Counted from the stretch's first letter, positions 15,546 to 42,202 are shown. The stretch: 64,000 nt of DNA from an uncultured virus (IMG/VR IMGVR_UViG_3300033463_005796) (IMGVR_UViG_3300033463_005796); one strand, 5' to 3'. Program-made: numbers and translations. Notes: a model not told the origin generated them from the letters alone.

Positions 15546-15558
15546 AATCGCTCAGTGA

Positions 15559-16362: not shown

Positions 16363-16365
16363 CTC

Positions 16366-18067: not shown

Positions 18068-18127
18068 AAGAAATCTCCTAGATGTGCTTCTTAATTACTC
18101 GTTGTCTTTAGAGCTCATTGTTTGTTT

Positions 18128-18382
18128 TTATCTTTGTGACAAGAATAAAATTTTCTTTTCAGAAAATTGTTCTGGCGCATTTGTACTATCTTTGATTAAA
18201 ACTTGTACTTTTCTAAAAAACTTTTTAGAAATGTCACTGGAAATGAAACTATCTATCCAAGGTGATGAAGTGTCATAAAGATACCAACCAGATTTTAATA
18301 ACTTAGAAAAATCAATATAATCATTTCTCTTTATTGGATAAACTTCTACCCATTTCTTGTAGAATTTAGAAAAATCGTTCAT
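18128..18382 (-). CDS. hypothetical protein (AT-rich)
   Basis: ORF after the AAA ATPase. Confidence 0.45.
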   Translation of the reverse strand: MNDFSKFYKKWVEVYPIKRNDYIDFSKLLKSGWYLYDTSSPWIDSFISSDISKKFFRKVQVLIKDSTNAPEQFSEKKILFLSQR

Positions 18383-18398
18383 TTGTTTGTTTCTTTCC

Positions 18399-19547
18399 TT
18401 AGATGTGCTTCTTCATTGCTTTGCCGTGGACCTTTGCCCACTCTTTGTAGCCAGGATGCGCAAGCAAAATCTTAGTGTAGTCCTTATTGATCTTCTTGTG
18501 GGCGCCATCAAAAGACATGGCGTCGACTAGAGCCATTGTAGCAAAGTTGGAAGGAAGCTTAGTTGCAATCCTAAAGAATCCAGCGATTCTCTTAGACTCA
18601 TCGTCATCATCTTTTCCTTTCCAAAGATGATAGACCATTGCAGCAACCATTGCATACTGCTGGTCTGCTTTTTCTGGAATGACAACTGGCTTGTTCTCAT
18701 CTGTCATGACGTCAAGGATGTTCTCATAGACTTCACGGTTCTTGTAGAACTCCATGAACTCAGCACCAGCTCCAGGACCAACAAGGCCATAGACAATCTT
18801 CTTGACTACAGTTTTCTTAGCATTAGTCTTCTCCATGATGTCGACCATGTGAGAGACTTTCTCCCAAGAACGAGGGGATGGCCAGCCATACTCGAGATTC
18901 TCACCATCCATATGATGGAGCATCTCAGGACGATAACGGATGAAACCTACGACTGAAGGATTGATTCCATTGTTGATTGCCCAACGTGCCCAATCTTCAG
19001 CATCTTCAGCAAGCTCGATATGCATGAAGCGGTTTGCAAGAGCAGAAGACATAGACATAGCGACAGCACGATCCTCAGTGCGGTTGCCTGCACCACAGAT
19101 GTACCAGCCATCTGGGACTTTGTAGATGTCGCCAAGCTTACGGTCAAGGATCAGCTCATATGCTGCAACCTGGATCGAACGGTCGCATGAGACAACTTCA
19201 TCCAAGAAGAGGATGCCCTTTGAATTGGGATCACGTGGCCAGAAGTCAGGCGGATTCCAAGTCATGCTGTGCTTCTCATTGTCGACAGAAGGAAGGCCAC
19301 GGATGTCGACTGCATCCATTTCTGCAAGTCGCACATCGATGAATCCAATGCCAAGCTCTTCAGCAACCTGCTTGACAATCTGGCTCTTTCCAACACCAGG
19401 AGCACCATGGATAAGAAGCGGAGGAAGCTTCTTAGCAAGCTCGGGGTCATTGATGATCCCCTGAGTCTGCATAACTAAAATATCATGCAGTTCAGAAGCA
19501 GTAATTCTGTTCGACTGCACATCGAGATTTTTCGCTTTAGCGTTCAT
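18399..19547 (-). CDS. MoxR-like AAA+ ATPase
   Basis: Walker A GAPGVGKS, DIRGLP, Walker B ILFLDE, AGNR, ALANRF, PSPRSW. Confidence 0.88.
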   Translation of the reverse strand: MNAKAKNLDVQSNRITASELHDILVMQTQGIINDPELAKKLPPLLIHGAPGVGKSQIVKQVAEELGIGFIDVRLAEMDAVDIRGLPSVDNEKHSMTWNPPDFWPRDPNSKGILFLDEVVSCDRSIQVAAYELILDRKLGDIYKVPDGWYICGAGNRTEDRAVAMSMSSALANRFMHIELAEDAEDWARWAINNGINPSVVGFIRYRPEMLHHMDGENLEYGWPSPRSWEKVSHMVDIMEKTNAKKTVVKKIVYGLVGPGAGAEFMEFYKNREVYENILDVMTDENKPVVIPEKADQQYAMVAAMVYHLWKGKDDDDESKRIAGFFRIATKLPSNFATMALVDAMSFDGAHKKINKDYTKILLAHPGYKEWAKVHGKAMKKHI

Positions 19548-19613
19548 TTGTTTTCCTTTTCTTTAATTGAAAGTTCGTCGTCTATCAGACACGTATGGAT
19601 ATATTATACTGAT

Positions 19614-19973
19614 CTACCTGTTCTTTTTCAAGATTTCTTCAGTATTCATGATGTTCAATTTTCTCAGGTTGTCTACATGGAACCTGTCATCATCATAGAC
19701 GAACACATGCAGATAGCCATTGCTGCTAGAACGAACTGACTCTACCATCAAACCATTCATCATTGCTGGAATGTCAAGATAGCCAAGAAGATCTTCAATG
19801 ACTGACTCATCTTTTCCAGAATAAGTGCAATGGATCCCTTGGTTGTCAGAAGAAAAACAATGTGGAGTGAAATAGCATGCAGACAAGCCATCATATCGCT
19901 TGTCTGTGCCCATGAAAGATTTTAGAATCTCTTCGATCTCGGAGAGTTTCTTTTTGCGCTCAGTAGAATCCAT
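19614..19973 (-). CDS. hypothetical protein
   Basis: 119-aa ORF. Confidence 0.55.
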   Translation of the reverse strand: MDSTERKKKLSEIEEILKSFMGTDKRYDGLSACYFTPHCFSSDNQGIHCTYSGKDESVIEDLLGYLDIPAMMNGLMVESVRSSSNGYLHVFVYDDDRFHVDNLRKLNIMNTEEILKKNR

Positions 19974-20005
19974 TGCTGCTTTATTTGTTTGACATTTTTA
20001 TTATA

Positions 20006-20311
20006 TCAAGCTTGATTATTATTGGCAGTCTCATCAGAATTTTTATTTTCTGAGGATTTACTGTGCTCTTTTGAAATGTCATCAGCTACTTGCTGGAGCT
20101 TTTCAATGAAGACAATCATATACTTAGCAATCTGCTTTGCATATGCATCTGTAACTTCATCTCCTCCAGAGATTCCATCAATCTTGCATCTAAACTCTGA
20201 ATCATTCAGACGCTGCACTTCAAAGATGATCTTGCTGCTAGCAACTACTTTTTCTTCTTTGACTTCTTCAGTCTTTGTCTCAGGTGTTTCTTCTGCCATG
20301 TCTTTGTCCAT
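20006..20311 (-). CDS. hypothetical protein (paralog of 8795..9130)
   Basis: shared GISGGD motif. Confidence 0.65.
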   Translation of the reverse strand: MDKDMAEETPETKTEEVKEEKVVASSKIIFEVQRLNDSEFRCKIDGISGGDEVTDAYAKQIAKYMIVFIEKLQQVADDISKEHSKSSENKNSDETANNNQA

Positions 20312-20331
20312 TTTTTTATGAATAATATACG

Positions 20332-20604
20332 CTATAGAGTCTTGATGACGTCTTCAAACTTTAAGCATTTTCCAGGCTCTTTATGCGCATAGGCGATCTT
20401 CTTGACGTTGTTCCATGAGTCTGTATGGTAGAGAAGGTTGTGCTTTGACACTGCATCTGAGATCTTGTAGAAGCTGATGCTTGTCCCATTTGACTTCAAG
20501 AATTCAGTAAGGTCTAGTATGATTCCAAATTTGTTCCTGACAATCTCTGATTCATACTGCATCTGCGGTGTAAATATCTTGCTTTGGATCTTTTTCCTGT
20601 CCAT
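20332..20604 (-). CDS. hypothetical protein
   Basis: ORF in packed block. Confidence 0.5.
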   Translation of the reverse strand: MDRKKIQSKIFTPQMQYESEIVRNKFGIILDLTEFLKSNGTSISFYKISDAVSKHNLLYHTDSWNNVKKIAYAHKEPGKCLKFEDVIKTL

Positions 20605-20626
20605 TTTGTTTCTTGCTGGCTAGTTG

Positions 20627-20878
20627 TTATTTGTAGTTCTTAGATTGAACACGGTAAAGCTGATATACAGGGTTGATCCCAGGTGAAATTCGTTTGTAGA
20701 TATGGACTTGCTTTTCCATAGTCACTACGATGTTTGTCCCTTGAAGTAGGGCATTCTCAACCGGATATGGAGTATTGATGTAAGTCAAGATATTTCCATG
20801 CAATGAATGGACTGCTATGCACTTTGGACCTTCAGTCGTGCAGTAAGCCGGTTCATCATAGTATTCGTTTCTAGCCAT
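20627..20878 (-). CDS. hypothetical protein
   Basis: ORF in packed block, AAGTAATTA motif upstream. Confidence 0.55.
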   Translation of the reverse strand: MARNEYYDEPAYCTTEGPKCIAVHSLHGNILTYINTPYPVENALLQGTNIVVTMEKQVHIYKRISPGINPVYQLYRVQSKNYK

Positions 20879-20902
20879 ATTATTGTTAATTACTTTTGTT
20901 CA

Positions 20903-21271
20903 TTAGTGGAACACCATCCAACGGATCAGTTTGCCAATTGGCCAGAACTTCAGATATTCTGGAACTTCATCCCAGAGCTCTTGCTCTTTCTTTCTGACAA
21001 TCTCTTCGTGCGTCAGTTTCTTCTGTTCTTTTTCTTTCTTCAGCCGTTCTGCTTCATTGATGTTCGCTTGAGCAATGTTAATCGCAGTGTCAAGATTGTG
21101 CATCGTGACTTTCATCATGTCCTCAAAAGCAAGATCATCAGTGACCTCAATCTCTTTGCCTTTGTACTTTTCAGGATATTTCAAAAAGTCTTTCACTGTG
21201 TCTTTCTTGACTGACTCTTCCCAAGCAGAGTCCCAGTCAAAGAAGTCATCTGGTACTTCTAGTCTTTTCAT
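20903..21271 (-). CDS. hypothetical protein
   Basis: ORF directly after the sigma factor. Confidence 0.55.
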   Translation of the reverse strand: MKRLEVPDDFFDWDSAWEESVKKDTVKDFLKYPEKYKGKEIEVTDDLAFEDMMKVTMHNLDTAINIAQANINEAERLKKEKEQKKLTHEEIVRKKEQELWDEVPEYLKFWPIGKLIRWMVFH

Positions 21272-21273
21272 TT

Positions 21274-22056
21274 TCAGCAGAAAGCTGGAGCTAAGTCAGA
21301 CCAGCTGTTGATTGAGAACTTGTCTTTAAGACGCTGCTTGAACTTGTCTAAGATCGTCTTCTTAGATTTGTTTACTTCGGAGATGTTGATTCCAAGATCA
21401 ACAGAAATCTGCTTGACTGTGTCATGGTCTACAAATGCTCTTTGGAAGACTTCACGGTCTGTTGGATTGAAGTCAACAGAAGTCTTGACATAGTCAATCA
21501 AATGCTCATAGATCGAATGAGTGTCATTCTCTTCGATCTGGCTTTCAGTGTCTTTCACTGAACGCTGGTAAGTTGGATCAATCTGCTCTTCAATGAAGTT
21601 CTCATATGTAGCTCCAGACTGGTCATCTCCTGCTGTCTTGTCTTCATTGACAAAAGTATTCAGTCGAATTGAAGCTGCTGAGACTTGGTCATCTTTGTCA
21701 TAGAACTGCCCAACCATGTATTTGAAGACCCATGGCGTAGCATAAGTGATGAACTTGTTTCCTTTCTCTGGCTCAAACCTCTGAGCTGCAGTGACAAGAC
21801 CAAAGAACCCTCTTGCTACCATGTCATCAAAGTCATGTGTCTTCAGGGCATATTTCTTAGACATGCTGAAGACAATCCTGAGGTTGTGCATGATGAGAAG
21901 CTCCCTGCAGTGGTCCCTGTCTTTGTCCCACCATTCATCAATCAGAGCTTGCTCTTCTTCTTTTGAAAGCGTGTCATACTGCTTCTCTGACGCTTTCAGC
22001 TGTCGAATCATCGCTGTAGATGATTCATTATTCTGGATTGCGATCTGTTCTGCCAT
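21274..22056 (-). CDS. sigma-70 family RNA polymerase sigma factor
   Basis: LSKEEE, LIMHNLRIVFSMSKKY, DDMVARGFFGLVTAAQRFEPEKGNKFITYATPWV (region 2), C-terminal HTH-like region. Confidence 0.9.
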   Translation of the reverse strand: MAEQIAIQNNESSTAMIRQLKASEKQYDTLSKEEEQALIDEWWDKDRDHCRELLIMHNLRIVFSMSKKYALKTHDFDDMVARGFFGLVTAAQRFEPEKGNKFITYATPWVFKYMVGQFYDKDDQVSAASIRLNTFVNEDKTAGDDQSGATYENFIEEQIDPTYQRSVKDTESQIEENDTHSIYEHLIDYVKTSVDFNPTDREVFQRAFVDHDTVKQISVDLGINISEVNKSKKTILDKFKQRLKDKFSINSWSDLAPAFC

Positions 22057-22134
22057 TTCTGCCTCGATTCTTTATTGCCATTATATCAAGCTCTAGCTAT
22101 ACTTAGCAGAGCTTGTTCATTTTATTTGATTAAA

Positions 22135-22491
22135 TCATTTCTCAAAAAGTTTCATGAAGTCAATGACTTCTCTCTTTTCAGCGGTCTCTTTCAAGAAAAC
22201 TGTTTCTAGATCAAATTCATGATAGTCTTTTGCGAGATATCTAGTGAATACAAATCCATGATCAATAAGATACTGCGCATCCTCTTTAGAATACCAATGA
22301 AGAAGATCTTCAATTCGTGAACAAGAAGAATACCAGTTTTTCCCATCAATATGATATCTAGGATCATATCCCATAGGAAGATTCTTAGCATCTCCTTTAC
22401 AGTCTTTGCAACCCCAGACATATTCATTCTTAGAGTTGTACCAAAGACCGTTGTTTTCGTCAACAGCTTCTAGTCTATAAAGCCATTTCAT
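22135..22491 (-). CDS. hypothetical protein
   Basis: ORF coupled to RNA ligase gene. Confidence 0.6.
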   Translation of the reverse strand: MKWLYRLEAVDENNGLWYNSKNEYVWGCKDCKGDAKNLPMGYDPRYHIDGKNWYSSCSRIEDLLHWYSKEDAQYLIDHGFVFTRYLAKDYHEFDLETVFLKETAEKREVIDFMKLFEK

Positions 22492-22493
22492 TA

Positions 22494-23711
22494 TTAGTCT
22501 CCATTCTTGAGAAGGTACTTAGCTGAGACCTTCTTGAAGGAGATTTCTCCATTGTCGATTCTTTTGAAGACAACACCCTCGATCTGGTTTCCATTGTCAG
22601 ACTTCCGATCGACATACTTCTCAAAGTCTTCAATTGAATGGAGCTTCTGGAAGATCTTGCAAGTCTCAATGACCTTGACATGCTCAAGGCCAAGGAACTC
22701 ACAGATAGAGTATCTGACTTCCGGAGAGACAAACTTCTGGTCAGTGATGTCAAAGATGCGGAAGACTCTGAAGTGAGACTCAGCATTCTTGTCACGGTTG
22801 CCATTGAACTTTGGTCCAATCATTTCACCTTGGATTGCAAGCTCATGCTTAGCCGGGAAGATTTCTACGTCACCATCTTTTCTCACTAAGCCAATGCCAT
22901 ACAGCGTGTCAAGTCTGTTTTTCAGACCATCCCAGCCAATCTTCTTGAAAGCAGCAAACCAGTCATCGCTTCCACCATCGTCTTTCAAGAGGAAACGACG
23001 AGAAGAGATCTGCATTGCATCTTTTCCAGTCTCGGGGTTCCAAGTCAAAGGACGGTAGAAGAGGGTGCAAGAAGAACCATCATTCTTCTCAGTGCATTCC
23101 CAATCAGCATTGGCCATCTCTGGGTCAGTGAAGTATTCCATCAGTGCCTCAAGGCGGATCTCATCAGTCTTAGGAACATCTGAAGGGAAATTGCCTGAAG
23201 CATGGGACTGTGCTCTAGGACCGAGCTGAGAACGCTCGTCAAACCACTCGACAAGACGATCATAGACTTCAACTTTGAAGAGTGAAGTCATGTCAGTCCC
23301 AACAGGAAGATCTATGAAGAATGGAGTCTCAGGAGTGTTAGGAAACTCATGAGCAATTGTCTGCAGAGGAATGACAAGACCTTGAGAGACTTGGCCACGA
23401 AGCTTGATAGTCTTGATCTTCACATACTGCTCAGAGAATGCTGAAGACTCGGGTGTCTTTCCAGTGTAAAGCTTCTTCAAAGCTACGTTCTTAAGGAACT
23501 CCATGCAAGGAAGAAGATCATTGACATTGATTGCTGAGTCAATCTCGAAGTAGACGACCTTCTGACCAACAGAAAATTCACCTTTCTTTACGACGACTTT
23601 CCAGCCAAGGTTCTTCATCTCAGCTACTTCAAGAAAGTCAGAGTTCTCAATAGGAGAAAGCTTAGCAATCTCCTGGATTGACGCCATTTTACGTTGAGTT
23701 TCAGTAAGCAT
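22494..23711 (-). CDS. ATP-dependent RNA ligase, DRB0094/Rnl5-like
   Basis: N-terminal RKMASIQ...WKVVVKKGEF...VYFEIDS...KLRGQVSQGL; PKTDEIR; motif I EKNDGSS; QGEMIGP; FDI; EGVVFK; SFKKVS. Confidence 0.9.
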   Translation of the reverse strand: MLTETQRKMASIQEIAKLSPIENSDFLEVAEMKNLGWKVVVKKGEFSVGQKVVYFEIDSAINVNDLLPCMEFLKNVALKKLYTGKTPESSAFSEQYVKIKTIKLRGQVSQGLVIPLQTIAHEFPNTPETPFFIDLPVGTDMTSLFKVEVYDRLVEWFDERSQLGPRAQSHASGNFPSDVPKTDEIRLEALMEYFTDPEMANADWECTEKNDGSSCTLFYRPLTWNPETGKDAMQISSRRFLLKDDGGSDDWFAAFKKIGWDGLKNRLDTLYGIGLVRKDGDVEIFPAKHELAIQGEMIGPKFNGNRDKNAESHFRVFRIFDITDQKFVSPEVRYSICEFLGLEHVKVIETCKIFQKLHSIEDFEKYVDRKSDNGNQIEGVVFKRIDNGEISFKKVSAKYLLKNGD

Positions 23712-23769
23712 TTTCTTTTCCTTTGTTTTACGTTCTTATTATATCAACTTCTGCAGCAGTTTAGCAGAG

Positions 23770-24948
23770 TCATTCTATTTCAAAAAGCTGAATGAACTTG
23801 TCATCAGTGATTGACACCACAAAGTCATCTGTCAGCTTGCCATCATACGCCTTGAACCAAAGCATTGCCTGCGGCTCATTCTTATGACGAAGAGCAAAAT
23901 CTTTTCTAGAAAGGTGCTCTTCATTGATTTCACCATCAACACAAGTCTTAATGAACTTTACTCTCAGCATTGCAGCATTGACTCGAAGTCTAACCTCATC
24001 AAAGCGCTCCTTGTACTCGGGGAAATATGAAAGGAATTCAGCATCTTCACCTTTGCGGATCAAAGCTACCATTGCTTCTAGATCCATTGCTCCGTTTGAC
24101 ATCTGCTTGTGCAGTTGGAAATAGAGCTTTGATTTCATCTTGATCCTATTGCCATTGCCATCTCTGACAACAATGCCCTCATGCTTAATGCCAAATCCTT
24201 CAACAAGATTCGTGTAGTCTTCAGGAGACTTCATCTCATAAGCTGTTGGAGTGTCAACACCTAGCTGATATCCAACATAGCCATCAACCACAAGGTTCCC
24301 CGTCAGCTCTGCTCCATCTTCATTTCTGAACCTGCCAATAAGGAAGAGCTTTGGCTTTGGATAGTCAATGACAATGCGATTGAACCTAGAGCAAAGCTCA
24401 AAGCAATATGTCGCCTTCTTCCAAAGATATCCTCCTGTAAATGGATCTTTGCTATCCGGGCTTTCAAGCTTTTTCTTGAATTTAGGATAGTTCTTCTCAA
24501 TAATGTCTCTCAGCAGTGCGCCAAATGTTGGGTAGATGGCATCTGACAGTTCTGCTTCATCTACATCGAAGTTCTGTCGAGTTCCAAAAATCCAACGTCC
24601 ATCATAGTATGAAAGAAACACTAGTGTCCCATCTTCCTTGATTGTGGCATTTGCAGTGTCCCAATCGATATTTGCAGCAGGGCCTTCACCATAGTTGAAG
24701 AACCTGTTGAACCCCTTTCTTACGATTTTGAACTTCTCTTTTGAGTCAAGGACAAGGCCACGAGCTTCAGCTACGATTGGATCATAGTTGTCAGACTCAA
24801 GCATGTTGTAGTTGAACATGACATAGCGTCCATCTGCAAAAGACGAACGCTTGATCTTCAATGAATAAGGAGGTAGCTGAAGTGCAGCTTCCCAATCATC
24901 ATGCTCAAAAATGAACTTTTGAATGTTTAGCATCTTTTTATAGGTCAT
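23770..24948 (-). CDS. T4 Rnl1-like RNA ligase
   Basis: EARGLVL, RFFNYGE, motif I KEDGTL, FELCS...NRIV, EGIVV, RIKMKS. Confidence 0.88.
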   Translation of the reverse strand: MTYKKMLNIQKFIFEHDDWEAALQLPPYSLKIKRSSFADGRYVMFNYNMLESDNYDPIVAEARGLVLDSKEKFKIVRKGFNRFFNYGEGPAANIDWDTANATIKEDGTLVFLSYYDGRWIFGTRQNFDVDEAELSDAIYPTFGALLRDIIEKNYPKFKKKLESPDSKDPFTGGYLWKKATYCFELCSRFNRIVIDYPKPKLFLIGRFRNEDGAELTGNLVVDGYVGYQLGVDTPTAYEMKSPEDYTNLVEGFGIKHEGIVVRDGNGNRIKMKSKLYFQLHKQMSNGAMDLEAMVALIRKGEDAEFLSYFPEYKERFDEVRLRVNAAMLRVKFIKTCVDGEINEEHLSRKDFALRHKNEPQAMLWFKAYDGKLTDDFVVSITDDKFIQLFEIE

Positions 24949-25771
24949 CTAGTGTTTGTTCTTCACCCTTGCACATTGCAAGGAACTCTTTCTCAGACAG
25001 GAGCTTTGTCCCAAGCTCACGAGCTTTGCAGGCTTTAGTCGATGTGCTGTTAGGATCAGCAATGACAAGATAAGTAAGGCCCTTTGAAACACTGCTCTTG
25101 ATCTCAAACCCAACAGACTCAGCAAGCTTCTGAGCTTCAGTCCGCCCCATTGTCTCAAGTGCGCCTGTGAAACAAATAGACCCCTTAGAAGATGGGCGAG
25201 CGACATCATCTACTCCGCTATAGTGGTATCTAGAATCAGTAACAATCTTCTTTGTATTCTCAATGGCTTCAGGAAGATATTCCCAAAAAGCTTCAATTGA
25301 CTTCTCACCAATTCCAGCAGGAAGAGTTGAAAGCATATGCTGCTTCTCATTGTCTTCATGCTTCAGGCCCATGATCCAGTCAAAATGGTAATGCTCGATG
25401 ATCTTTCCAATCTGAACTTCTGCTAGACCCTTGAAGTGCATTGCTCTAAAGATCTTCTGTGGAGAAGCTGAAAACAGCTTGTCATTCAGCTCATTGTAAA
25501 GTGTAGTCTCACTCTTATAGTTTGGATTTGGAGTGAATGAGATCAAATCACTGACAGTCTTGATTCCAAAGTTGTCAAGCTGCTTCTTAGCTGAATGCTT
25601 GATGTCAAACTTCTTGATGAACACAGTCAAAGCAGTGCCAAGCTTAGCTTCACACTCTTTGTTCATGCATCGAAGGTCAACACCATCAACCACCAATGGA
25701 GATCCACAGCATGGACAGACCATTGGCGCCAGATAGCGGTCATGTAGCTCTTGAACTGAAATGTCTTTCAT
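24938..25771 (-). CDS. NAD-dependent DNA ligase, C-terminal part (Zn finger, HhH, BRCT)
   Basis: CPCCGSPL...LRCMNKEC, GIGEKS HhH, ICFTGAL...SSVSKGLTYLV...KARELG BRCT. Confidence 0.85.
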   Translation of the reverse strand: MKDISVQELHDRYLAPMVCPCCGSPLVVDGVDLRCMNKECEAKLGTALTVFIKKFDIKHSAKKQLDNFGIKTVSDLISFTPNPNYKSETTLYNELNDKLFSASPQKIFRAMHFKGLAEVQIGKIIEHYHFDWIMGLKHEDNEKQHMLSTLPAGIGEKSIEAFWEYLPEAIENTKKIVTDSRYHYSGVDDVARPSSKGSICFTGALETMGRTEAQKLAESVGFEIKSSVSKGLTYLVIADPNSTSTKACKARELGTKLLSEKEFLAMCKGEEQTLDDL

Positions 25772-27104: not shown

Positions 27105-27180
27105 TGGAGCATTCGGTGGGTGCCGCCCCCACGTATAGCGGTTTTGCAGACCGCCGCGTTTGCTGTTTCGCCACGAATGC
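27105..27180 (-). tRNA. tRNA-Cys(GCA)
   Basis: GCGGT-CTGCAAA-ACCGC, U73, atypical T loop. Confidence 0.85.
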
Positions 27181-28322: not shown

Positions 28323-28985
28323 TTATTTACCATTTTTAATTTTTCGCCCAGCTTTCCAACCATTTGGAATAGATTCTGTTTTAAAAATTGTTTTTGATTC
28401 TAAGGTCTTAATATTATAAATCCAAATTTTACCATACATTGCATTTTTATTTTTAAAATGGTTTTTTGACATTTTCTTTCTTGTTTCTTCAGAATGATTT
28501 TTTCCAAACATTGGATTTTTATTACCGACTCTACTAAATTTTTCAGGATTATTTAGTTTTGCTTTTGCTATTCCTTCTTTTACTCTTTTTTTATGATATT
28601 CAGATAATTTTTTCCCTATTTTGCCAATATTATTTAATTTCATTTTATTTATGTAAATAAATCCAAAATTTCCATCATTAATACTATCTCTATTTTTATT
28701 TATATAATCCCATCCACCATCTCCACCAACTTTTAAATTATACGTATCATCTCTAGCTACAAACTCTTCATTAACAATCTCTTTTTCTTTTGCATCCATT
28801 TCATCTTTGTCCTTACAAAAGAAAAGAATTTTTCTATCAAAATTTTCTATGCCATATTTATTAATAGCATTCCAAAGAATTTTTCCTGATCCTAAATAAC
28901 CATCATTGAGATTATTTGTTTGGTGCTGACCAATATAAATTTTTCCATTTATTTTATTTGTTGTTTGATAAATTAAAAAATACAT
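28323..28985 (-). CDS. GIY-YIG (Seg-like) homing endonuclease with NUMOD3 motif
   Basis: LIYQTTNKINGKIYIGQH, YLGSG, YNLKVGG, NPMFGKNHSEETRKKMS; AT-rich. Confidence 0.88.
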   Translation of the reverse strand: MYFLIYQTTNKINGKIYIGQHQTNNLNDGYLGSGKILWNAINKYGIENFDRKILFFCKDKDEMDAKEKEIVNEEFVARDDTYNLKVGGDGGWDYINKNRDSINDGNFGFIYINKMKLNNIGKIGKKLSEYHKKRVKEGIAKAKLNNPEKFSRVGNKNPMFGKNHSEETRKKMSKNHFKNKNAMYGKIWIYNIKTLESKTIFKTESIPNGWKAGRKIKNGK

Positions 28986-29026
28986 AATTGAACCTTTAAA
29001 AATATTTACTTTTTAAAGGTTCAATT
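28986..29026 (-). promoter_or_regulatory. perfect 16-bp inverted repeat abutting the endonuclease ATG, with AGTAAATAT in the loop
   Basis: AATTGAACCTTTAAAA-N9-TTTTAAAGGTTCAATT. Confidence 0.7.
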
Positions 29027-29033
29027 CTAAGCT

Positions 29034-29107
29034 TTGCGGGAGCATGATTTGAACATGCAACACACGGGTTATGGGCCCGTTGAGCTACCGGGTTGCTCTA
29101 TCCCGCA
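29034..29107 (-). tRNA. initiator-type tRNA-Met(CAT), no encoded CCA
   Basis: ACGGG-CCCATAA-CCCGT with three G:C pairs, GAGC/GCTC D stem. Confidence 0.88.
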
Positions 29108-29196
29108 GTAATTAAAGGTTCAATATTATTTACAAAAAACCCATCAGAGTTGAACCTCAAGGAGAATTACTTCTATCTTGAACTCTGATGAATAAG

Positions 29197-29277
29197 AGAG
29201 TCCGCTACTCTGCCGATTGAGTTACACCGGAATAATTGGTTCCGGTGGAGGGACTTGAACCCTCAACTCGCGGATTA
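29197..29277 (-). tRNA. circularly permuted tRNA, most likely Lys(CTT), split in the anticodon
   Basis: 3' half 29277-29237 (TAATCCGC...CACCGGAACCA) precedes 5' half 29231-29197 (TCCGGTG...GCGGACTCT); all four stems pair. Confidence 0.8.
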
Positions 29278-29352
29278 TGGCAAGGCACCCGGGAGTTGAA
29301 CCCGGCTCTTCGGGATGAAAGCCCGATGAACTAACCGATATTCGAGTGCCTC
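29278..29352 (-). tRNA. tRNA-Glu(TTC)
   Basis: TCGGG-CTTTCAT-CCCGA, G73, CCA. Confidence 0.9.
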
Positions 29353-29359
29353 ATTAAGC

Positions 29360-29435
29360 TGGCTCCCAGACCAGGATTCGGACCTGGAACTACCTGATTA
29401 ACAGTCAGGACTTCTACCAATTGAAGTATCTGGGA
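29360..29435 (-). tRNA. tRNA-Asn(GTT)
   Basis: CCTGA-CTGTTAA-TCAGG. Confidence 0.92.
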
Positions 29436-29455
29436 ATAATTGAAAATATTATACT

Positions 29456-29533
29456 TGGTCGGAGAGATAGGATTTGAACCTACGACATCTTGCTCCCAAA
29501 GCAAGCGCTCTAGCCAGACTGAGCTACTCTCCG
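29456..29533 (-). tRNA. tRNA-Pro(TGG)
   Basis: CTTGC-TTTGGGA-GCAAG. Confidence 0.93.
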
Positions 29534-29539
29534 TTAAGT

Positions 29540-29673
29540 TGGTTTGTCCAATAGGATTTTCACCTATATCACCGGCCGTATTCTCCGGTGTTCTTTCAGT
29601 CAAAGATAGGTCGACTCTGCTTTGACCTAGCGGCTCTCCATCATCTTGCTTCGTCCGCTTGAACTATGAACAA
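29540..29673 (-). ncRNA. tRNA-like RNA with a large structured D-loop insertion
   Basis: acceptor TTGTTCA/TGGACAA-ACCA, T arm ATAGG/CCTAT, D stem GTTC/GAAC enclosing about 67 nt, non-canonical anticodon loop. Confidence 0.7.
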
Positions 29674-29691
29674 ATGAAAAATGATTGATGT

Positions 29692-29768
29692 TGGTGGACA
29701 CGTGGGGACTCGAACCCCGATCCTCTGAGTGCAAATCAGAAATTCTAACCAAATTGAACTACCGGCCC
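29692..29768 (-). tRNA. tRNA-Ala(TGC), imperfect acceptor stem
   Basis: TCTGA-TTTGCAC-TCAGA, G3:U70. Confidence 0.82.
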
Positions 29769-29773
29769 ATGAA

Positions 29774-29932
29774 TGGTGGCGCCTGGTGGTAACGCTCCAC
29801 CCGTCCCGAAGGAGCAGATTTTGGCGGGCTCACGGGGAATCGAACCCCGAATAATGGATCGACAATCCATAGTTATAACCGTTTAACTATGAGCCCACAG
29901 TCTGCCGCCCCTCTTTAGAGCTATAAGACGCC
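29774..29932 (-). tRNA. tRNA-Tyr(GTA) interrupted in the anticodon by a complete tRNA-Asp
   Basis: 5' half 29932-29897 ends GCAGA-CTGT; 3' half 29821-29774 starts AAA-TCTGC; acceptor GGCGTCT/AGGCGCC-ACCA; long variable arm. Confidence 0.85.
29822..29896 (-). tRNA. tRNA-Asp(GTC), nested in tRNA-Tyr
   Basis: GGGCTCA/TGAGCCC-GCCA, ATGGA-TTGTCGA-TCCAT. Confidence 0.92.
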
Positions 29933-29965
29933 ATAGGAAAGTTTGTTCGTTTGTCACAGATCAAA

Positions 29966-30040
29966 TGGAGCCGGCTGAGAATTCCGAGATCTCGACCCGC
30001 GGTTTACAAAACCGCTGCTCTGCCGCTGAGCTAAGCCGGC
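29966..30040 (-). tRNA. tRNA-Thr(TGT)
   Basis: GCGGT-TTTGTAA-ACCGC, atypical T arm. Confidence 0.87.
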
Positions 30041-30102
30041 ATTTAGATATATTGTACCTAGTTATTTACTTTTTACTTTTTGTTTTTTCACTTATTTTTG
30101 TT

Positions 30103-30178
30103 TGGAGCCGAGGCTCAGGATCGAACTGAGAACCGATGCTTACGAGGCAACTGTTTTAACCAGTTAAACTATCCCGGC
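30103..30178 (-). tRNA. tRNA-Thr(CGT)
   Basis: GTTGC-CTCGTAA-GCATC. Confidence 0.88.
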
Positions 30179-30181
30179 ATG

Positions 30182-30325
30182 AATAGTTGTAGCAATACCA
30201 TACGTTTGCTCTTTTTCAGCCCCTACGTTCCAATCAATGCAGTTCATCACACAACAGGCTCGACTAGTATTACCTTCATGCAATTCCCTGAACGGAAAAG
30301 ACTAGCTCTTGGTGGGACAACTATT
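30182..30325 (-). ncRNA. candidate rod-shaped ncRNA
   Basis: terminal AATAGTTGT/ACAACTATT plus nested short stems. Confidence 0.45.
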
Positions 30326-30340
30326 AAGAACCTTTAAAAA

Positions 30341-30583
30341 TCAAACTGAATAATCATGATCTAGATATTCATCAGTGAAGACATTATACCTATTGATGCC
30401 AACGATCTTTTTGCCGAAATCATTCTGAGAAATCATTAGCGTCCGTCTCTGAAGGCTGTCTCCCTTCTTCCAAATTGGCTTCTTGAAGACAAGCATAATG
30501 CTGCCGCCCCAAGGCTCCCAACCAATGATGTCTTTCACTGAAACTTTTTTCGTGCGATGAGCTGACTGGTCGTAGAATTTCAT
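30341..30583 (-). CDS. hypothetical protein
   Basis: ORF with AAGGAA RBS and class I promoter upstream. Confidence 0.6.
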   Translation of the reverse strand: MKFYDQSAHRTKKVSVKDIIGWEPWGGSIMLVFKKPIWKKGDSLQRRTLMISQNDFGKKIVGINRYNVFTDEYLDHDYSV

Positions 30584-30777
30584 GTGTGTTTTCCTTGTTG
30601 TTCGTTTGACGATTTGATTATATCAAGATTGGATTTCTTTAGCAGACTAAATTCAGATTTGAAAAAATTTTGACTTTCTTAAAAAGTGACCCTTACGCCC
30701 CAGAGTATTTTTCAATTTTATGGTTTTGCCCGGGAATGAAAAACTGATACGCATGGAGCAGCTAGCAAAGGATGGAG

Positions 30778-32036: not shown

Positions 32037-33119
32037 TTAAATTTTTCTTCCATTGACTTCAACAATCTTTGGAATGATCTCACCAGACTTAAGGACTTTG
32101 ACATTGGCGCCAGGATGGATGTCATTCTTCGTGATGAAGTCTACATTGTAGAGGCTTGCTTTCTGGACAATTGTCCCTGCAAGCTCAACCGGGTCAAGCA
32201 AAGCGACTGGGACAAACTTGCCGTCTTTGGATGGACCAGTCCATTCAATCCCTACGACTACTGAATCTGCAATAGACTCATTGATCTTGTAAGCAATCTG
32301 GTTCTCTGGAATGAGCTTGTCTTCATTCCTGTAGCTGTCATCAGACATGACAAGGCCATCGACTCCATAAGGGAATGGCTGCTTGACATAGCGGCGAAGC
32401 TCTTCATTGAAGCGCTCAAAGCTTTCAGCTGTCAGAGTGTAGACTTCAGTTGGCGTGATAGTCTTGTTCCAAGCTACATAGAAGCCATTCTTCTCAAGGA
32501 ATTCAAACTGCTCTTTCTTAGTGAACTTGTCGCCAAACACCGTGTAAGCGACAAATGTGATCTTCTTCAGGTCTTCAGTGATGTCTTTGCGTCCAACAAT
32601 CCCTGCAGTAGCATTGCGAGGATTGGCAAAGTCAAGGCCTTCAAAGTCTTTTTCAAGGATGACAAGCTCACCACGGATGTCAAGAGTGCTCTTGTCATAG
32701 ATCGACTTTGGAACATAGCTGACGCTGAAGATCTTGTCAGTGATGTTCTCACCTCTGCTTCCATCTCCACGAGTAGTTGCAGATACTAAGCTTCCATTCT
32801 CATAATGGAGCCTGCAGCTGATGCCATCGACTTTAGCACTGATGTTCAGTCCAGTCGTGACATGGCTGTTAAGCCACTTCTCAAGGTTCTCGGGCTCTTC
32901 AGCTTTGAACTTCTCAAGAGAGCCCATAGGATATGGATGCTGGACTTTGCCAGCTTTCTCAAACAGCGTTGAACGGAACTTTGTCCACTCTTCAAATGAA
33001 AGATTGCTTCTAAGCTCATCACAAAGGCCATCAAACTCCTGGTCAGACATCACAGGATTGCCTTCACGATAAGCAACGTTAGCAGAAATGATTTTGCTCT
33101 TGAGTTCAGCAGTAGTCAT
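32037..33119 (-). CDS. ligA: NAD-dependent DNA ligase, N-terminal part (Ia, adenylation, OB domains)
   Basis: YREGNPVMSDQEFD, HPYPMGSLEK, KVDG, TRGDGSRGENIT, RGE, NPRNATAG, DGLV, AYK, KSGEIIPKI then stop. Confidence 0.9.
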   Translation of the reverse strand: MTTAELKSKIISANVAYREGNPVMSDQEFDGLCDELRSNLSFEEWTKFRSTLFEKAGKVQHPYPMGSLEKFKAEEPENLEKWLNSHVTTGLNISAKVDGISCRLHYENGSLVSATTRGDGSRGENITDKIFSVSYVPKSIYDKSTLDIRGELVILEKDFEGLDFANPRNATAGIVGRKDITEDLKKITFVAYTVFGDKFTKKEQFEFLEKNGFYVAWNKTITPTEVYTLTAESFERFNEELRRYVKQPFPYGVDGLVMSDDSYRNEDKLIPENQIAYKINESIADSVVVGIEWTGPSKDGKFVPVALLDPVELAGTIVQKASLYNVDFITKNDIHPGANVKVLKSGEIIPKIVEVNGRKI

Positions 33120-34578: not shown

Positions 34579-35247
34579 TCATTTTGCCACTCTTACTTTG
34601 TCGTGGCCTCGCTCAATATTTGCATTAAGATAATCTTCAAGCGAACCTTCTTCTAGTTCACGATTCTTTCTGTCAATATCGATGATTTCATCAAGCGTTC
34701 TTGGCGCATAATCCATTCCTCGAATCATGCAACCAACATTATACATTCGAGATTCATGAAGGTAAAGATCTTCAATTTGCTTGCGGACATGCTTGATGCA
34801 TTGCGCATCCCAAGAAATATGGACATGGCCATAAAGATGGTAGGTGTTGTCGTGGTGCATGTTCACGAAGAAAGGCATCGGCGAATGGTTCAGTACCACA
34901 TAGCGTGCCTTACCATTAGCTCCTGGATCCTGGACCACTTCCTGGTGAGACCAATTCCTAATGAAGTTGTACTCCTTCAGAAGATTCAGAATCTCAGTCT
35001 TGTCATGGTTGCCCTTGACTATGTGCTTCTGGCCGTTGAGCTGCTTGAGAATCCGGACCCACTCTTCATACTTGTTGGACCAGACCACATCCCCAAGAAT
35101 GTAGACTGTATCATTTGGATCAACTGTCTTGTTCCAAAGCTCAATCATGTCATGCTCCATGTTGACAGTATTTGCCCAAGGACGATTGTCATAGCGCATA
35201 ATGTTCTTATGGCCGAAGTGCGTATCTGAAATGTATCTGATAGCCAT
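34579..35247 (-). CDS. calcineurin-like metallophosphoesterase
   Basis: SDTHFGH, LGD, GNHD, H.P, YGHVH, NVG. Confidence 0.9.
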   Translation of the reverse strand: MAIRYISDTHFGHKNIMRYDNRPWANTVNMEHDMIELWNKTVDPNDTVYILGDVVWSNKYEEWVRILKQLNGQKHIVKGNHDKTEILNLLKEYNFIRNWSHQEVVQDPGANGKARYVVLNHSPMPFFVNMHHDNTYHLYGHVHISWDAQCIKHVRKQIEDLYLHESRMYNVGCMIRGMDYAPRTLDEIIDIDRKNRELEEGSLEDYLNANIERGHDKVRVAK

Positions 35248-39108: not shown

Positions 39109-40251
39109 TCAAGAGGCCTTTTCTTTTGCAAGAGAAACCATCGACAGGAACTCAGACTCGGACAGAAGCTTTGTCCCAAATGCACGCGCACGGCAAGCTT
39201 TGATCGACGTAGAGTTAGGATCAGCCATCACAAGGTATTTCAAGCTTTGTGTCACACTAGTATGGATGTCAAATCCAACAGACCGAGCAAGCTTCTGCGC
39301 ATCTGCACGAGTCATTGTCTCAAGTGCGCCTGTGAAGCAGATAGAGCCTTTATAAGGAACTGTCTTGTTCTGAGGAACTTCTTCTGGCTTGTCAAGCGTA
39401 CTGGCTGCAAGCTCTAGCATGTCAATAGAAGGAGGAGCAGAAGGAGCATCAGCTGCAATAGGCTCTTCAGCCATTGGAGCTTCCGGCTCAACAGGAACCT
39501 GAATCTCCTTCTTTCTGAAGATGATCAAGTTCTGCCCGTATTCAACATGCTTGAACTCAGAATACTCATAGCCATCAGCAATGATCTCACGGAACTTCTC
39601 CTTGCAGACTGCAAGGAACTCATTGCGCTTAGTTGCACGGCACCAGTTCCTCTTCTTCTTGCTGTCAGGAATTGGACCAACACCGACAGTCTGAAAATGA
39701 CGGAACCGATAGAGCTGCTTGTCCGGATCGAACCAAAGCGAATAAGTGTTGTGAACTCCTCGAGAATAGCTGCCTTTACTTTGGTAGTTGTAAGACCATC
39801 CAGTATCAAAGTCAACAATGGCTTTTTCTAGAGGAACTAGTGTGACACGGTCAACACCATTCTTTCGAGACCAAGAAGCATGGTCGTTGTCAAGACAAAG
39901 AAGATGGACATCAGGCGTAGTATTTCCCCAAGAAGTCGGCTTGATGAAGCCATCAGGAAGCTTATAGAACTTTGAATCATTCCCTGAAAGGCCCCCTCGG
40001 AAAGAACGCTCAAACGCTTCACAGTAATTTCGGCCAATCTTTCGAACTTCTCGATTGCCAGCTTCTACCTTGACTCGAACTTCTTCATACTTTCGGATCA
40101 TGGCTTCATGAAGAGCATCAGAGATGTCCTTCGGAAGATACTGCTCTTTGACAATCGGGTGAGAAGTCGCAGCTCCCCAACCGGGACCGTTGTACCACTT
40201 CTCAGTGCAGATCGAGATGAGCTCACCGGGGAATTCAGCTTTGCGTGCCAT
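39109..40251 (-). CDS. protein with C-terminal ligase-type BRCT domain
   Basis: KGSICFTGALETM...ADPNSTS.KAC.AR..GTKLLSE.EFL nearly identical to BRCT of 24938..25771. Confidence 0.8.
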   Translation of the reverse strand: MARKAEFPGELISICTEKWYNGPGWGAATSHPIVKEQYLPKDISDALHEAMIRKYEEVRVKVEAGNREVRKIGRNYCEAFERSFRGGLSGNDSKFYKLPDGFIKPTSWGNTTPDVHLLCLDNDHASWSRKNGVDRVTLVPLEKAIVDFDTGWSYNYQSKGSYSRGVHNTYSLWFDPDKQLYRFRHFQTVGVGPIPDSKKKRNWCRATKRNEFLAVCKEKFREIIADGYEYSEFKHVEYGQNLIIFRKKEIQVPVEPEAPMAEEPIAADAPSAPPSIDMLELAASTLDKPEEVPQNKTVPYKGSICFTGALETMTRADAQKLARSVGFDIHTSVTQSLKYLVMADPNSTSIKACRARAFGTKLLSESEFLSMVSLAKEKAS

Positions 40252-41938: not shown

Positions 41939-42060
41939 CAAGACGCATTTGTTACGTTACTCTATCAACTGAGCTACAGTCTCGATTTGGCGAGACTGGT
42001 GGGACTCAAACCCACGACCAACGGGTTAATAGCCAAGTATGTTTTGCTGTATGCGTCTTT
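41939..42060 (-). ncRNA. CAGCAA-stem RNA copy E with permuted tRNA domain (YrlA-like architecture)
   Basis: AAGACGCA-TACAGCAA...TGCGTCTT enclosing T arm, CAGTCTCG-CCAAAT-CGAGACTG acceptor hairpin, D arm. Confidence 0.8.
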
Positions 42061-42128: not shown

Positions 42129-42202
42129 TGGTGGTGCTCCGAGCCATATTTCAGGCATCTCCCCGGCGGGTGTTCTTAGTTTCCTTGAACTATCGGAACA
42201 AC
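42129..42202 (-). ncRNA. tRNA-like RNA with stunted anticodon arm
   Basis: TGTTCCGA/TCGGAGCA, GTTC/GAAC D arm, CCC-GCC-GGG, CCA end. Confidence 0.65.

What the first reader, a model, noticed from the sequence alone, without database searches (positions are those of the whole stretch)
29540..29673. tRNA-shaped RNA with a hairpin and pseudoknot grafted into the D loop
Seen: acceptor, D stem, anticodon-like arm (CCGG/CCGG, loop lacking U33) and T arm with ACCA end. The D loop holds AGCGG...CCGCT and an H-type pseudoknot candidate AGGTC/GACCT with AGTC/GACT; GTCAAAG/CTTTGAC is an alternative pairing. Shares TAGTTCAAG...AAGAACACC...GAT...TGAAA with 42129-42202. Inference: tRNA scaffold used to stabilise or deliver an RNA domain.
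Basis: partly seen in the sequence, partly recalled or inferred. Interest (0 to 1): 0.7.

Follow-up and report, generated by a model that had tools for sequence, protein, structure and literature searches.

The report
Phage tRNA-shaped RNA with enlarged D arm
An uncultured cattle-gut phage carries, inside its tRNA gene row, a 134-base RNA built like a tRNA that cannot decode and has two extra hairpins in its D loop; it resembles the still unexplained small stable RNAs of phage T4.

Summary
It shows a 7-bp acceptor stem, U8-A9, a 4-bp D stem, a 4-bp anticodon-like stem, a 5-bp T stem and an encoded ACCA, with a 67-nt D loop. The element lies between tRNA-Ala and tRNA-Pro in the tRNA row of a large uncultured ruminant-gut phage.

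One fetched homologue (L091, 72% identical, same neighbours) keeps 68 of 70 pair cells. Six pairs changed on both sides. Random placement of the same number of changes gives at least six such pairs in 0.045% of trials.

The insert is therefore two hairpins. P1 has an invariant purine-rich internal loop, and P2 varies in sequence but is compensated.

ARAGORN and Rfam do not call it a tRNA. It has an 8-9-nt anticodon loop without U33 and an odd T loop.

Best reading: a non-decoding, tRNA-processed stable RNA that displays a binding module, closest in kind to T4 species 1 RNA (RNAC). No expression data exist.

P1 carries the Y-RNA motif GNCGAAG, and the phage encodes a Ro-like protein and YrlA-like RNAs. 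That link is weak.

The parts
29540..29673 (-). Whole tRNA-shaped RNA, 134 nt (r1 = 29673, r134 = 29540)
   Evidence: Read. Model R1 self-hit 174.4 bits; homologue L091 86.5 bits.
29667..29673 (-). Acceptor stem, 5' strand TTGTTCA (r1-7)
   Evidence: Pairs with 29544-29550. 7 of 7 pairs are identical in L091. In a relative in run X3, G126>A turns U5-G into U5-A.
29544..29550 (-). Acceptor stem, 3' strand TGGACAA (r124-130)
29661..29666 (-). U8 A9 and D stem 5' strand GTTC (r8-13)
   Evidence: Identical in L091 and in the short paralog.
29629..29659 (-). P1 hairpin in the D loop (r15-45). It has a 5-bp stem AGCGG/CCGCT, an internal loop ACGAAG / GAGAG, a C26-G35 and A27-U34 clamp, and a variable 6-nt apical loop.
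   Evidence: G18-C42 becomes A-U in L091. The internal-loop strands are 8/8 and 7/7 identical; the apical loop is 2/6 identical.
29649..29655 (-). GACGAAG, a match to the bacterial Y-RNA motif GNCGAAN0-1G
   Evidence: the only match in the 4.3-kb tRNA row. The base rate is 0.05 per 134 nt. It is kept in L091 at position 568. The motif is taken from PMC4201824.
29598..29627 (-). P2 hairpin in the D loop (r47-76): GGTCAAAG / CTTTGACT with a 14-nt loop holding the palindrome GTCGAC
   Evidence: Three pairs are compensated in L091 (48-75, 51-72, 52-71). The two distal pairs and the outer G-U are lost. The L091 loop holds the palindrome GCTAGC.
29590..29597 (-). Junction GAAA and D stem 3' strand GAAC (r77-84)
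   Evidence: 8 of 8 identical in L091.
29572..29588 (-). Anticodon-like arm: CCGG / CCGG with the 9-nt loop AGAATACGG (8 nt in L091), no U33
   Evidence: one G-C to G-U change. ARAGORN does not accept it.
29551..29567 (-). T arm ATAGG / CCTAT with the non-canonical loop TGAAAAT
   Evidence: Two pairs are compensated in L091, and one pair is deleted on both strands. The L091 loop is GGAAGAT.
29540..29543 (-). Encoded discriminator A plus CCA
   Evidence: 4 of 4 identical in L091. tRNA-Pro starts 6 nt further on.
42132..42199 (-). Short paralog (68 nt). It has the same D arm and flanks, an ordinary 11-nt D loop, a truncated 10-nt anticodon arm, a TGAAATAT T loop and ACCA.
   Evidence: R1 gives 21.5 bits with the filters off.

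Best explanation
This is a gene for a non-decoding, tRNA-derived small stable RNA, one cassette in the phage's tRNA operon.

Shown: it has tRNA geometry with a 7-bp acceptor stem and encoded ACCA. It lies 18 nt after tRNA-Ala and 6 nt before tRNA-Pro on the same strand. Its stems are kept by compensatory change. Its anticodon loop and T loop are not those of a working tRNA.

Inferred:
- It is transcribed with its neighbours, because any precursor that yields tRNA-Ala and tRNA-Pro contains it.
- It is released by the enzymes that mature tRNAs (RNase P at the 5' end, 3' trimming to CCA).
- The tRNA chassis gives it processing and stability.
- The working part is the D-arm insert. A three-way junction is closed by the D stem. 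Hairpin P2 is structural only, since its sequence is free and its pairing is kept. Hairpin P1 presents an invariant purine-rich internal loop (ACGAAG opposite GAGAG, which can form tandem sheared G-A pairs) as a docking site for a protein or another RNA.

The partner and the biological effect are unknown. The same is true of its closest analogue, T4 species 1 RNA (RNAC).
For: Geometry and pairing.

Context in a row of 25 tRNA genes on the minus strand, with spacers of 18 and 6 nt.

Homologue L091, with the same order Thr-Asp-Ala-element-Pro. Model score 86.5 bits, E 2e-23.

Covariation:
- Of 36 pairs, 25 are the same, 1 changed on one side, 6 changed on both sides and 4 are lost.
- 97.1% of cells are paired, against 27-46% when the partners are slid.
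- Random placement of the same 37 changes gives a mean of 1.18 compensated and 13.5 broken pairs. P(6 or more compensated) = 0.00045 and P(4 or fewer broken) = 0.00005.

Selective pattern: acceptor, D stem, junction and P1 internal loop are 100% identical. P2 strands are 4/8 and 2/8 identical, and the overall figure is 97/134.

The core is tRNA-like: R1 aligns ordinary tRNAs end to end with P1 and P2 deleted, at 16-23 bits.

Non-decoding: ARAGORN and Rfam tRNA do not call it. ARAGORN also fails at its default threshold after in-silico removal of the insert.

Precedent: T4 species I and II RNAs are cut from the same precursor as its eight tRNAs (PMC2330249, passage). They are confirmed by Northern blot but of unknown function (PMC9697503, passage). 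The T4 species 1 fold shows acceptor-like ends, a T arm and a very long hairpin in the D position.
Against: - Only one homologue could be fetched, and the alignment used for the counts was fitted to the model's structure.
- No RNA run holds the region, so expression and the RNA ends are unverified.
- The proposed structure is 5.5 kcal/mol above the MFE, and the fold z-score is only -1.79.
- The T loop (TGAAAAT / GGAAGAT) lacks the canonical T-loop letters, and G18 G19 are missing. An L-shaped elbow, and hence efficient RNase P or CCA-enzyme recognition, is not assured.
- A relative in run X8 has A74>U, which breaks U49-A74 in P2. A relative in run X5 joins 29535 to 29692, so it lacks the element and the element is dispensable.
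- No sequence similarity to T4 species 1 was found (no R1 hit on L001).
Confidence: 0.6

Rival explanations
1. Y-RNA-like adaptor. The P1 hairpin would be a Ro-binding module grafted onto a tRNA chassis. The RNA would work with the phage's Ro-like protein (or a host Rsr) in an RNP that handles damaged or misfolded tRNA, or that recruits a host exonuclease.
For: - P1 holds GACGAAG, which matches GNCGAAN0-1G. That motif is thought to mediate Rsr binding in bacterial Y RNAs (PMC4201824, passages). It sits in an internal loop, as described for the CGAA motif of phage phiLo Yrl RNAs (PMC12135203, passage). It is invariant in L091.
- The phage encodes a DUF2828+DUF7788 protein at 12149-13696. Homologues are annotated 'Ro-like RNA binding protein'. 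With its own two families left out of the search, 24 of its 30 feature hits in the protein atlas are clusters carrying TROVE plus vWA_Ro60.
- The same window holds YrlA-type tRNA mimics, a Thg1-like gene and two RNA ligase genes.
Against: - The motif is expected by chance 0.05 times per 134 nt.
- There is no Rfam YrlA hit on the element at E up to 10.
- The Ro-like gene is 16 kb away and has its own adjacent RNA units with a different invariant word, CAGCAA, in this window and beside the DUF2828 gene in 4 of 4 other phages checked. The element has AAGCAA and L091 has AAGCAG.
- The Ro-like protein gives no sequence match to solved Ro60 structures.
- The topology differs from YrlA, which has a closed acceptor and a motif in the basal stem.
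Confidence: 0.15
2. Decaying tRNA pseudogene. A tRNA gene was hit by an insertion of hairpin-forming DNA in its D loop, is no longer functional, and is drifting.
For: - The anticodon loop and T loop are non-canonical, and tRNA finders reject the element even without the insert.
- The element is precisely absent from one relative, and the row is highly modular (tRNA-Asp and other cassettes come and go).
- The P2 loop carries 6-nt palindromes, as small mobile hairpins often do.
Against: - Drift should break stems. Instead there are 6 compensated pairs against an expected 1.18, and 4 lost pairs against an expected 13.5.
- The 15 internal-loop letters of P1, the junction and the ACCA are invariant at 72% overall identity.
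- A paralog keeps the same odd D-arm flanks and the TGAAA T loop while its acceptor and T stems differ in a compensated way.
Confidence: 0.12
3. A working but aberrant tRNA. It would be charged and used in translation, for example for unconventional decoding with an 8-9-nt anticodon loop.
For: It has a 7-bp acceptor stem, a discriminator and encoded CCA. Enlarged anticodon loops occur in frameshift-suppressor tRNAs (recalled, not from a call). The row has no tRNA-Lys.
Against: - Loop length and letters differ between the two homologues (AGAATACGG against GGAATCAG), so no anticodon is conserved.
- There is no U33.
- The T loop and D loop lack the letters that build the elbow.
- The paralog has no anticodon arm to speak of.
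Confidence: 0.04

Closest known systems
Bacteriophage T4 species 1 RNA (RNAC; with species 2 / RNAD), L001:4741-4877
   Same: Both are encoded inside the phage tRNA gene cluster, next to a homing-endonuclease gene. They are of similar size (137 and 134 nt). Both have acceptor-like paired ends and a T arm next to the 3' strand. Both have a greatly enlarged element in the D position and a non-decoding hairpin in the anticodon position (one search compared). T4's RNA is made from the tRNA precursor and has no known function (PMC2330249; PMC9697503).
   Different: No detectable sequence or model similarity (no R1 hit). T4 has one long hairpin and a canonical TTCGAAT T loop, and no encoded CCA. The present RNA has a true 4-bp D stem closing a junction of two hairpins, an odd T loop and an encoded ACCA.
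Bacterial and phage Y RNAs of the YrlA type (Rfam RF02553)
   Same: Both are tRNA mimics encoded by phages that also carry a Ro-type protein. The GNCGAAG-type motif is present.
   Different: YrlA has a closed acceptor-like stem-loop, its 5' and 3' ends form the Ro-binding stem, and it lies within 4 kb of the Ro gene (PMC4201824). Here the acceptor is open and ends in CCA, the motif is in a D-loop hairpin, and the Ro-like gene is 16 kb away. There is no RF02553 hit.
Canonical tRNA (Rfam RF00005)
   Same: The cloverleaf spacing is 7/2/4/.../4/1/4-5/loop/4-5/4/5/7/5/7/ACCA. U8, A9 and A14 are present. It sits in a tRNA row.
   Different: The D loop is 67 nt and holds two hairpins. The anticodon loop is 8-9 nt and lacks U33. 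The T loop lacks the T-Psi-C letters. Neither ARAGORN nor RF00005 calls it.
Engineered 'tRNA scaffold' for recombinant RNA (seen only as a search listing and the start of an abstract, PMC3401473)
   Same: The idea is the same: a foreign RNA domain embedded in a tRNA body so that the cell processes and stabilises it.
   Different: That scaffold is man-made, and as far as I recall the insert replaces the anticodon arm rather than the D loop. Nothing here shows that stabilisation is the natural role.

Membership tests
tRNA (RF00005) | Cloverleaf with a 7-bp acceptor, 3-4-bp D stem, 5-bp anticodon stem, 5-bp T stem and a 3' CCA | tested here: inconclusive
   The stems and spacing are present. The anticodon stem has only 4 standard pairs and the D loop is 67 nt.
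tRNA (RF00005) | 7-nt anticodon loop with U33 and a purine at position 37 | tested here: not met
   The loop is 9 nt (AGAATACGG). In L091 it is 8 nt (GGAATCAG). Neither has U33.
tRNA (RF00005) | T loop T54-Psi55-C56...A58, and G18 G19 in the D loop | tested here: not met
   The T loop is TGAAAAT here and GGAAGAT in L091. The D loop is replaced by P1 and P2.
tRNA (RF00005) | Recognised by tRNA finders | tested here: not met
   ARAGORN found 26 genes and this is not among them. RF00005 gives no hit at gathering score or at E up to 10. ARAGORN at its default threshold also fails after the insert is removed in silico.
T4-type small stable RNAs of phage tRNA clusters (species 1 / RNAC) | Encoded within the tRNA cluster on the same strand | tested here: met
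   It lies between tRNA-Ala and tRNA-Pro, with spacers of 18 and 6 nt. L091 has the same arrangement.
T4-type small stable RNAs of phage tRNA clusters (species 1 / RNAC) | tRNA-like ends (paired 5'/3' stem plus T arm) with a non-tRNA interior | tested here: met
   for this RNA and for T4 species 1.
T4-type small stable RNAs of phage tRNA clusters (species 1 / RNAC) | Sequence or profile homology to T4 RNAC | tested here: not met
   R1 gives no hit on L001:4741-4877. Its only hit there is T4 tRNA-Ser.
T4-type small stable RNAs of phage tRNA clusters (species 1 / RNAC) | Accumulates as a discrete stable RNA cut from the tRNA precursor | not testable with these tools
   No RNA run holds the region.
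YrlA / bacterial Y RNA (RF02553) | Rfam model score at or above 69 bits | tested here: not met
   No hit on 29540-29673 at E up to 10.
YrlA / bacterial Y RNA (RF02553) | GNCGAAN0-1G motif near the 5' end, in the stem formed by the RNA's two ends | tested here: inconclusive
   The motif is present and conserved. It lies in an internal hairpin of the D loop, and its chance rate is 0.05 per 134 nt.
YrlA / bacterial Y RNA (RF02553) | Encoded within about 4 kb of the Ro60 gene on the same strand | tested here: not met
   The Ro-like gene is at 12149-13696 on the same strand, but about 16 kb away.
YrlA / bacterial Y RNA (RF02553) | Bound by Ro60/Rsr | not testable with these tools
   This needs a pull-down or a gel-shift assay.
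tmRNA | tRNA-like domain plus a tag reading frame and pseudoknots | tested here: not met
   ARAGORN reports no tmRNA. Rfam gives no tmRNA hit on the element. The short ATG frame in P1 stops after 4 codons and is not conserved with L091 (read).

The most novel reading that the evidence does not exclude
Phages of this lineage would run a private RNA-surveillance kit made of several tRNA mimics. This RNA would be a new topological class of Y-type RNA. It would have an open, CCA-ended tRNA body, processed like a tRNA and possibly handled by tRNA enzymes. Its D arm would display a Ro-type docking loop (ACGAAG/GAGAG). The palindromic loop of P2 could let two molecules kiss. In this way it would bridge the Ro-like protein, or a host exonuclease, to tRNA-handling machinery during infection or counter-defence.
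Probability: 0.15. Interest if true: 0.8.

Novelty: new variant of a known kind. Interest (0 to 1): 0.6.

Why it matters
Small stable RNAs in phage tRNA clusters have been known since T4 but have no known function, as recent work still states (PMC9697503). A second, unrelated example now exists with a clear architecture: a tRNA body, a conserved display loop and a compensated structural hairpin. This suggests that 'tRNA chassis plus cargo' is a recurrent phage design rather than a T4 oddity. It also gives a defined loop to mutate and a defined RNA to use as bait.

The surrounding window makes the system a good entry point into how large phages manage or imitate tRNAs. It holds a Ro-like protein with its own repeated RNA units, YrlA-type mimics, a Thg1-like enzyme and RNA ligases.

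Tried and rejected
**Relatives in public phage records.** DNA searches found only the flanking tRNAs. The best protein identity was 35%.

**IMG/VR (viral contigs).**
- Five DNA-pattern scans and one protein scan gave no homologue.
- The 73, 5 and 3 pattern hits were chance matches in coding DNA.
- The anchor from the conserved spacer gave 0 hits.

**Metagenome scan.** 21 loci were returned and 1 is real, L091.

**Genome scan.** 14 loci were returned and none is real.

**Own genome.** None is held.

**Expression.** No RNA holder is listed for the region.

**Earlier findings of this scan.** Nothing by place or by sequence.

**Rfam.** No family fits the element at E up to 10.

Rejected.

**A coding frame in P1.** Rejected, because it is not conserved.

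**YrlA next to DUF2828 genes.** 0 of 4 phage records have an RF02553 match, and sub-threshold hits also occur in 6 of 14 control genomes. The 32-bit YrlA hit at 29200-29272 therefore carries little weight on its own.

**Sequence match of the Ro-like protein to solved Ro60.** None. The only four hits, all arginine kinase, are at chance level (E 0.72-1.7).

**The 110-nt 'tRNA-Undet' of Synechococcus phage B23.** Its insert is in the anticodon region, so it is not an analogue.

**Promoter and terminator scan of 28900-30700.** Nothing above the shuffled expectation.

Full report
**Where it lies**

The window is part of a large, uncultured phage.
- The runs that hold it near-identically are bovine-gut metagenomes.
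- No whole genome is held.
- The best protein identity to any deposited phage is 35%.
- IMG/VR has no relative.

Genes and tRNAs run on the minus strand. ARAGORN finds 26 tRNA genes, 23 of them between 25.9 and 30.2 kb. Rfam adds two more in that row.

The finding occupies most of a 158-nt gap between tRNA-Ala (29692-29768) and tRNA-Pro (29456-29533).

**The observation**

Read on the minus strand, with r = 29674 - p, the 134 nt from 29673 to 29540 have exact tRNA spacing:

| Part | Sequence and position |
|---|---|
| Acceptor stem | TTGTTCA / TGGACAA |
| Positions 8-9 | U8 A9 |
| D stem | GTTC / GAAC |
| Position-26 equivalent | one A |
| Anticodon-like stem | CCGG / CCGG, 9-nt loop |
| Variable region | 4 nt |
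| T stem | ATAGG / CCTAT, loop TGAAAAT |
| 3' end | discriminator A, then CCA |

The D loop is 67 nt. Neither ARAGORN nor any Rfam family calls the element, even at E up to 10. As a single sequence its fold is not exceptional: z is -1.79, and the cloverleaf-like structure is 5.5 kcal/mol above the MFE. The case therefore rests on comparison.

**Comparison**

One scan of metagenome contigs returned 21 loci, of which 1 is a true homologue, L091:550-680. It has the same neighbours: Thr, Asp, Ala, the element, then Pro. A covariance model built from the window sequence alone (R1) finds it at 86.5 bits, E 2e-23.

Overall identity is 97 of 134, but it is unevenly spread:
- Acceptor stem, D stem, the GAAA junction, ACCA and both strands of the P1 internal loop are 100% identical.
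- The P2 strands are 4/8 and 2/8 identical.
- The T stem strands are 2/5 and 2/5 identical.

Of 36 modelled pairs:
- 25 are unchanged.
- 1 changed on one side (G-C to G-U).
- 6 changed on both sides and still pair: 18-42, 48-75, 51-72, 52-71, 108-122 and 109-121.
- 4 are lost. These are the outer G-U and the two distal pairs of P2, plus one T-stem pair deleted on both strands.

97.1% of cells are paired (68 of 70), against 27-46% when the partners are slid. Placing the same 37 changes at random gives a mean of 1.18 compensated and 13.5 broken pairs. P(6 or more compensated) is 0.00045.

Caveat: there is only one homologue, and the alignment was fitted to the model.

Contigs of four other ruminant-gut runs add fragments of evidence:
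- L091-like variants occur in X3 and X4.
- In X3, G126>A makes U5-G into U5-A.
- In X8, A74>U breaks one P2 pair.
- In X5, one contig joins 29535 directly to 29692, so that relative lacks the element.

Other cassettes of the row, such as tRNA-Asp, are likewise present or absent among relatives.

**What the insert is**

In L091, 2 of 5 pairs of AGGTC/GACCT hold. AGTC/GACT keeps two wobbles, loses one pair and has one gap. No pair is compensated.

The D loop is thus a junction closed by the D stem and carrying two hairpins.

- **P1 (r15-45).** It has a 5-bp stem with one compensated pair. An internal loop, ACGAAG opposite GAGAG, is invariant and can form tandem sheared G-A pairs (my reading of the sequence). 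A two-pair clamp and a variable 6-nt tip complete it.
- **P2 (r47-76).** Its sequence is free but its pairing is kept. Its loop holds a 6-nt palindrome in both homologues, GTCGAC and GCTAGC. Composition-matched shuffles give a joint chance of about 0.035. This is unexplained; a loop-loop dimer is possible.

**Is it a tRNA?**

The core is tRNA-like. R1 aligns ordinary tRNAs end to end with P1 and P2 skipped, at 16-23 bits.

It is not a decoder:
- The anticodon loop is 9 nt here and 8 nt in L091, with different letters and no U33.
- The T loops are TGAAAAT and GGAAGAT.
- G18 G19 are absent.
- After the insert is removed in silico, ARAGORN still rejects it at the default threshold. It accepts only the window copy at 80% stringency.

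**The second locus**

Window 42132-42199 (minus) is a 68-nt tRNA-shaped RNA. It has the same D arm and flanks (TAGTTCAAG ... AAGAACACC), an ordinary 11-nt D loop, a stub in place of the anticodon arm, a TGAAATAT T loop and ACCA.

Its acceptor and T stems differ from the candidate's but still pair. The D-arm letters, not the stems, are what the two copies share.

**Mechanism**

Any precursor that yields tRNA-Ala and tRNA-Pro contains this RNA, and maturation of the neighbours alone would release it (inference).

I take it to be a stable, tRNA-processed, non-decoding RNA. Its chassis supplies processing and stability, and the P1 loop is a docking site. P2 is a structural strut. The partner is unknown.

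The closest known thing is T4 species 1 RNA (RNAC):
- It has the same location in a tRNA cluster, next to a Seg-type endonuclease gene.
- It is of similar size.
- It has paired ends, a T arm, a huge D-position hairpin and a non-decoding anticodon-position hairpin.
- It is cut from the tRNA precursor (PMC2330249).
- Its function is still unknown (PMC9697503).

There is no sequence or model similarity between the two. I therefore file the element as the same kind, not the same family.

**The Ro lead**

P1 contains GACGAAG, a match to GNCGAAN0-1G. That motif is proposed to mediate Ro binding in bacterial Y RNAs (PMC4201824; compare the CGAA motif of phage phiLo Yrl RNAs, PMC12135203).

The window encodes a DUF2828+DUF7788 protein. 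Homologues of it are annotated Ro-like. Its nearest named clusters in the protein atlas are TROVE plus vWA_Ro60.

Several points weigh against the link:
- The motif's chance rate is 0.05 per 134 nt.
- There is no YrlA model hit.
- The Ro-like gene has its own neighbouring RNA units with a different invariant word, CAGCAA.

I keep this as the novel reading, at about 15%.

**Verdict**

This is a real, conserved, structured tRNA-derived RNA. The pseudoknot is wrong, and the 'scaffold plus cargo' anatomy is right. It is a new variant of the little-understood phage tRNA-cluster small RNAs. The literature searches run for this report returned no description of it.

Noticed in passing
window 13740-14834 (minus) and 41940-42059 (minus); L118:6461-6716; L119:4653-4914; L120:6712-7545; L121:4870-4930 and 6809-6854: There is a repeated RNA unit of one design: a 7-9-bp stem, then 0-3 nt, then the invariant word CAGCAA, then 40-110 nt of interior, then the closing strand followed by G. 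Four copies lie just upstream of the window's Ro-like (DUF2828) gene and one lies next to the short paralog. The same design sits beside the DUF2828 gene in all 4 other phages checked (Mycobacterium Bazzle, Listeria LP-083-2, Salmonella BPS15Q2, Synechococcus B23). Rfam gives no YrlA hit in those four records. It looks like an undescribed partner-RNA family of phage Ro-like proteins. A search for DUF2828 in papers gave only plant and tardigrade papers.
   Followed up: partly
window 41940-42059 (minus): This CAGCAA unit has the full YrlA layout: a basal stem, a T arm GTGGG TTTGAGT CCCAC, an 8-bp closed acceptor-like stem with a CCAAAT loop, TA, and a D arm GCTC...GAGT. It lies 72 nt after the short tRNA-shaped paralog and 35 nt before tRNA-Leu.
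   Followed up: partly
window 29108-29277 (minus): This is a circularly permuted tRNA-like element. In order it has an anticodon-stem 3' strand, a T arm GAGGG TTCAAGT CCCTC, the acceptor 3' strand plus ACCA, a short loop, the acceptor 5' strand, TA, a D arm and the anticodon-stem 5' strand. A long hairpin and a T run follow. Rfam YrlA scores 32.3 bits against a cut-off of 69. It has no CAGCAA or GNCGAA word. Relatives in run X5 carry it with changes.
   Followed up: partly
window 27108-27180 and 29969-30040 (minus): Two tRNAs are seen by Rfam only. Reading their loops, they are Cys-like (GCA) and Tyr-like (GTA). Both have non-canonical T loops and no encoded CCA. The first has AAACAGCAAA as its D loop, that is, the CAGCAA word.
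   Followed up: no
window 7000-25771: This is an RNA-handling gene block: a Ro-like DUF2828 gene (12149-13696), a Thg1-like tRNA-His guanylyltransferase (16630-17496), an AAA ATPase, a DUF2201 metallopeptidase/VWA protein, DnaJ, a sigma-like factor and two RNA ligases (22494-23711 and 23770-24948). A phosphoesterase lies at 34579-35247.
   Followed up: partly
window 32037-33119, 24938-25771 and 39109-40251 (minus): The NAD-dependent DNA ligase appears to be split. An N-terminal part and a C-terminal part are encoded about 6 kb apart, with the tRNA row and endonuclease genes between them. A further BRCT-bearing paralog is also present.
   Followed up: no
window 29769-29821 and 29897-29968 (minus); L091:268-333 and 412-471: Two non-tRNA spacers of the row (53 and 72 nt) are conserved in L091, for example CTTATAGCTCTAAAGAGGGGCGGCAGACTGT. 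They may be further small RNAs or processing signals.
   Followed up: no
L119:3459-4010 (Listeria phage LP-083-2): A ROOL RNA match just under the cut-off (87.4 against 99.1 bits) lies between the tRNA row and the Ro-like gene.
   Followed up: no
L121:6863-6972 (Synechococcus phage B23): A 110-nt 'tRNA-Undet' lies next to the DUF2828 gene. It carries an insert of about 37 nt in the anticodon region.
   Followed up: no
window 28900-30300 in runs X3, X4, X5, X8: The tRNA row is modular among relatives. Contigs skip tRNA-Asp (29821 to 29897) in three runs, skip 29106-29456 in one, and replace tRNA-Pro or the spacer before tRNA-Ala with 101-186 other letters.
   Followed up: no
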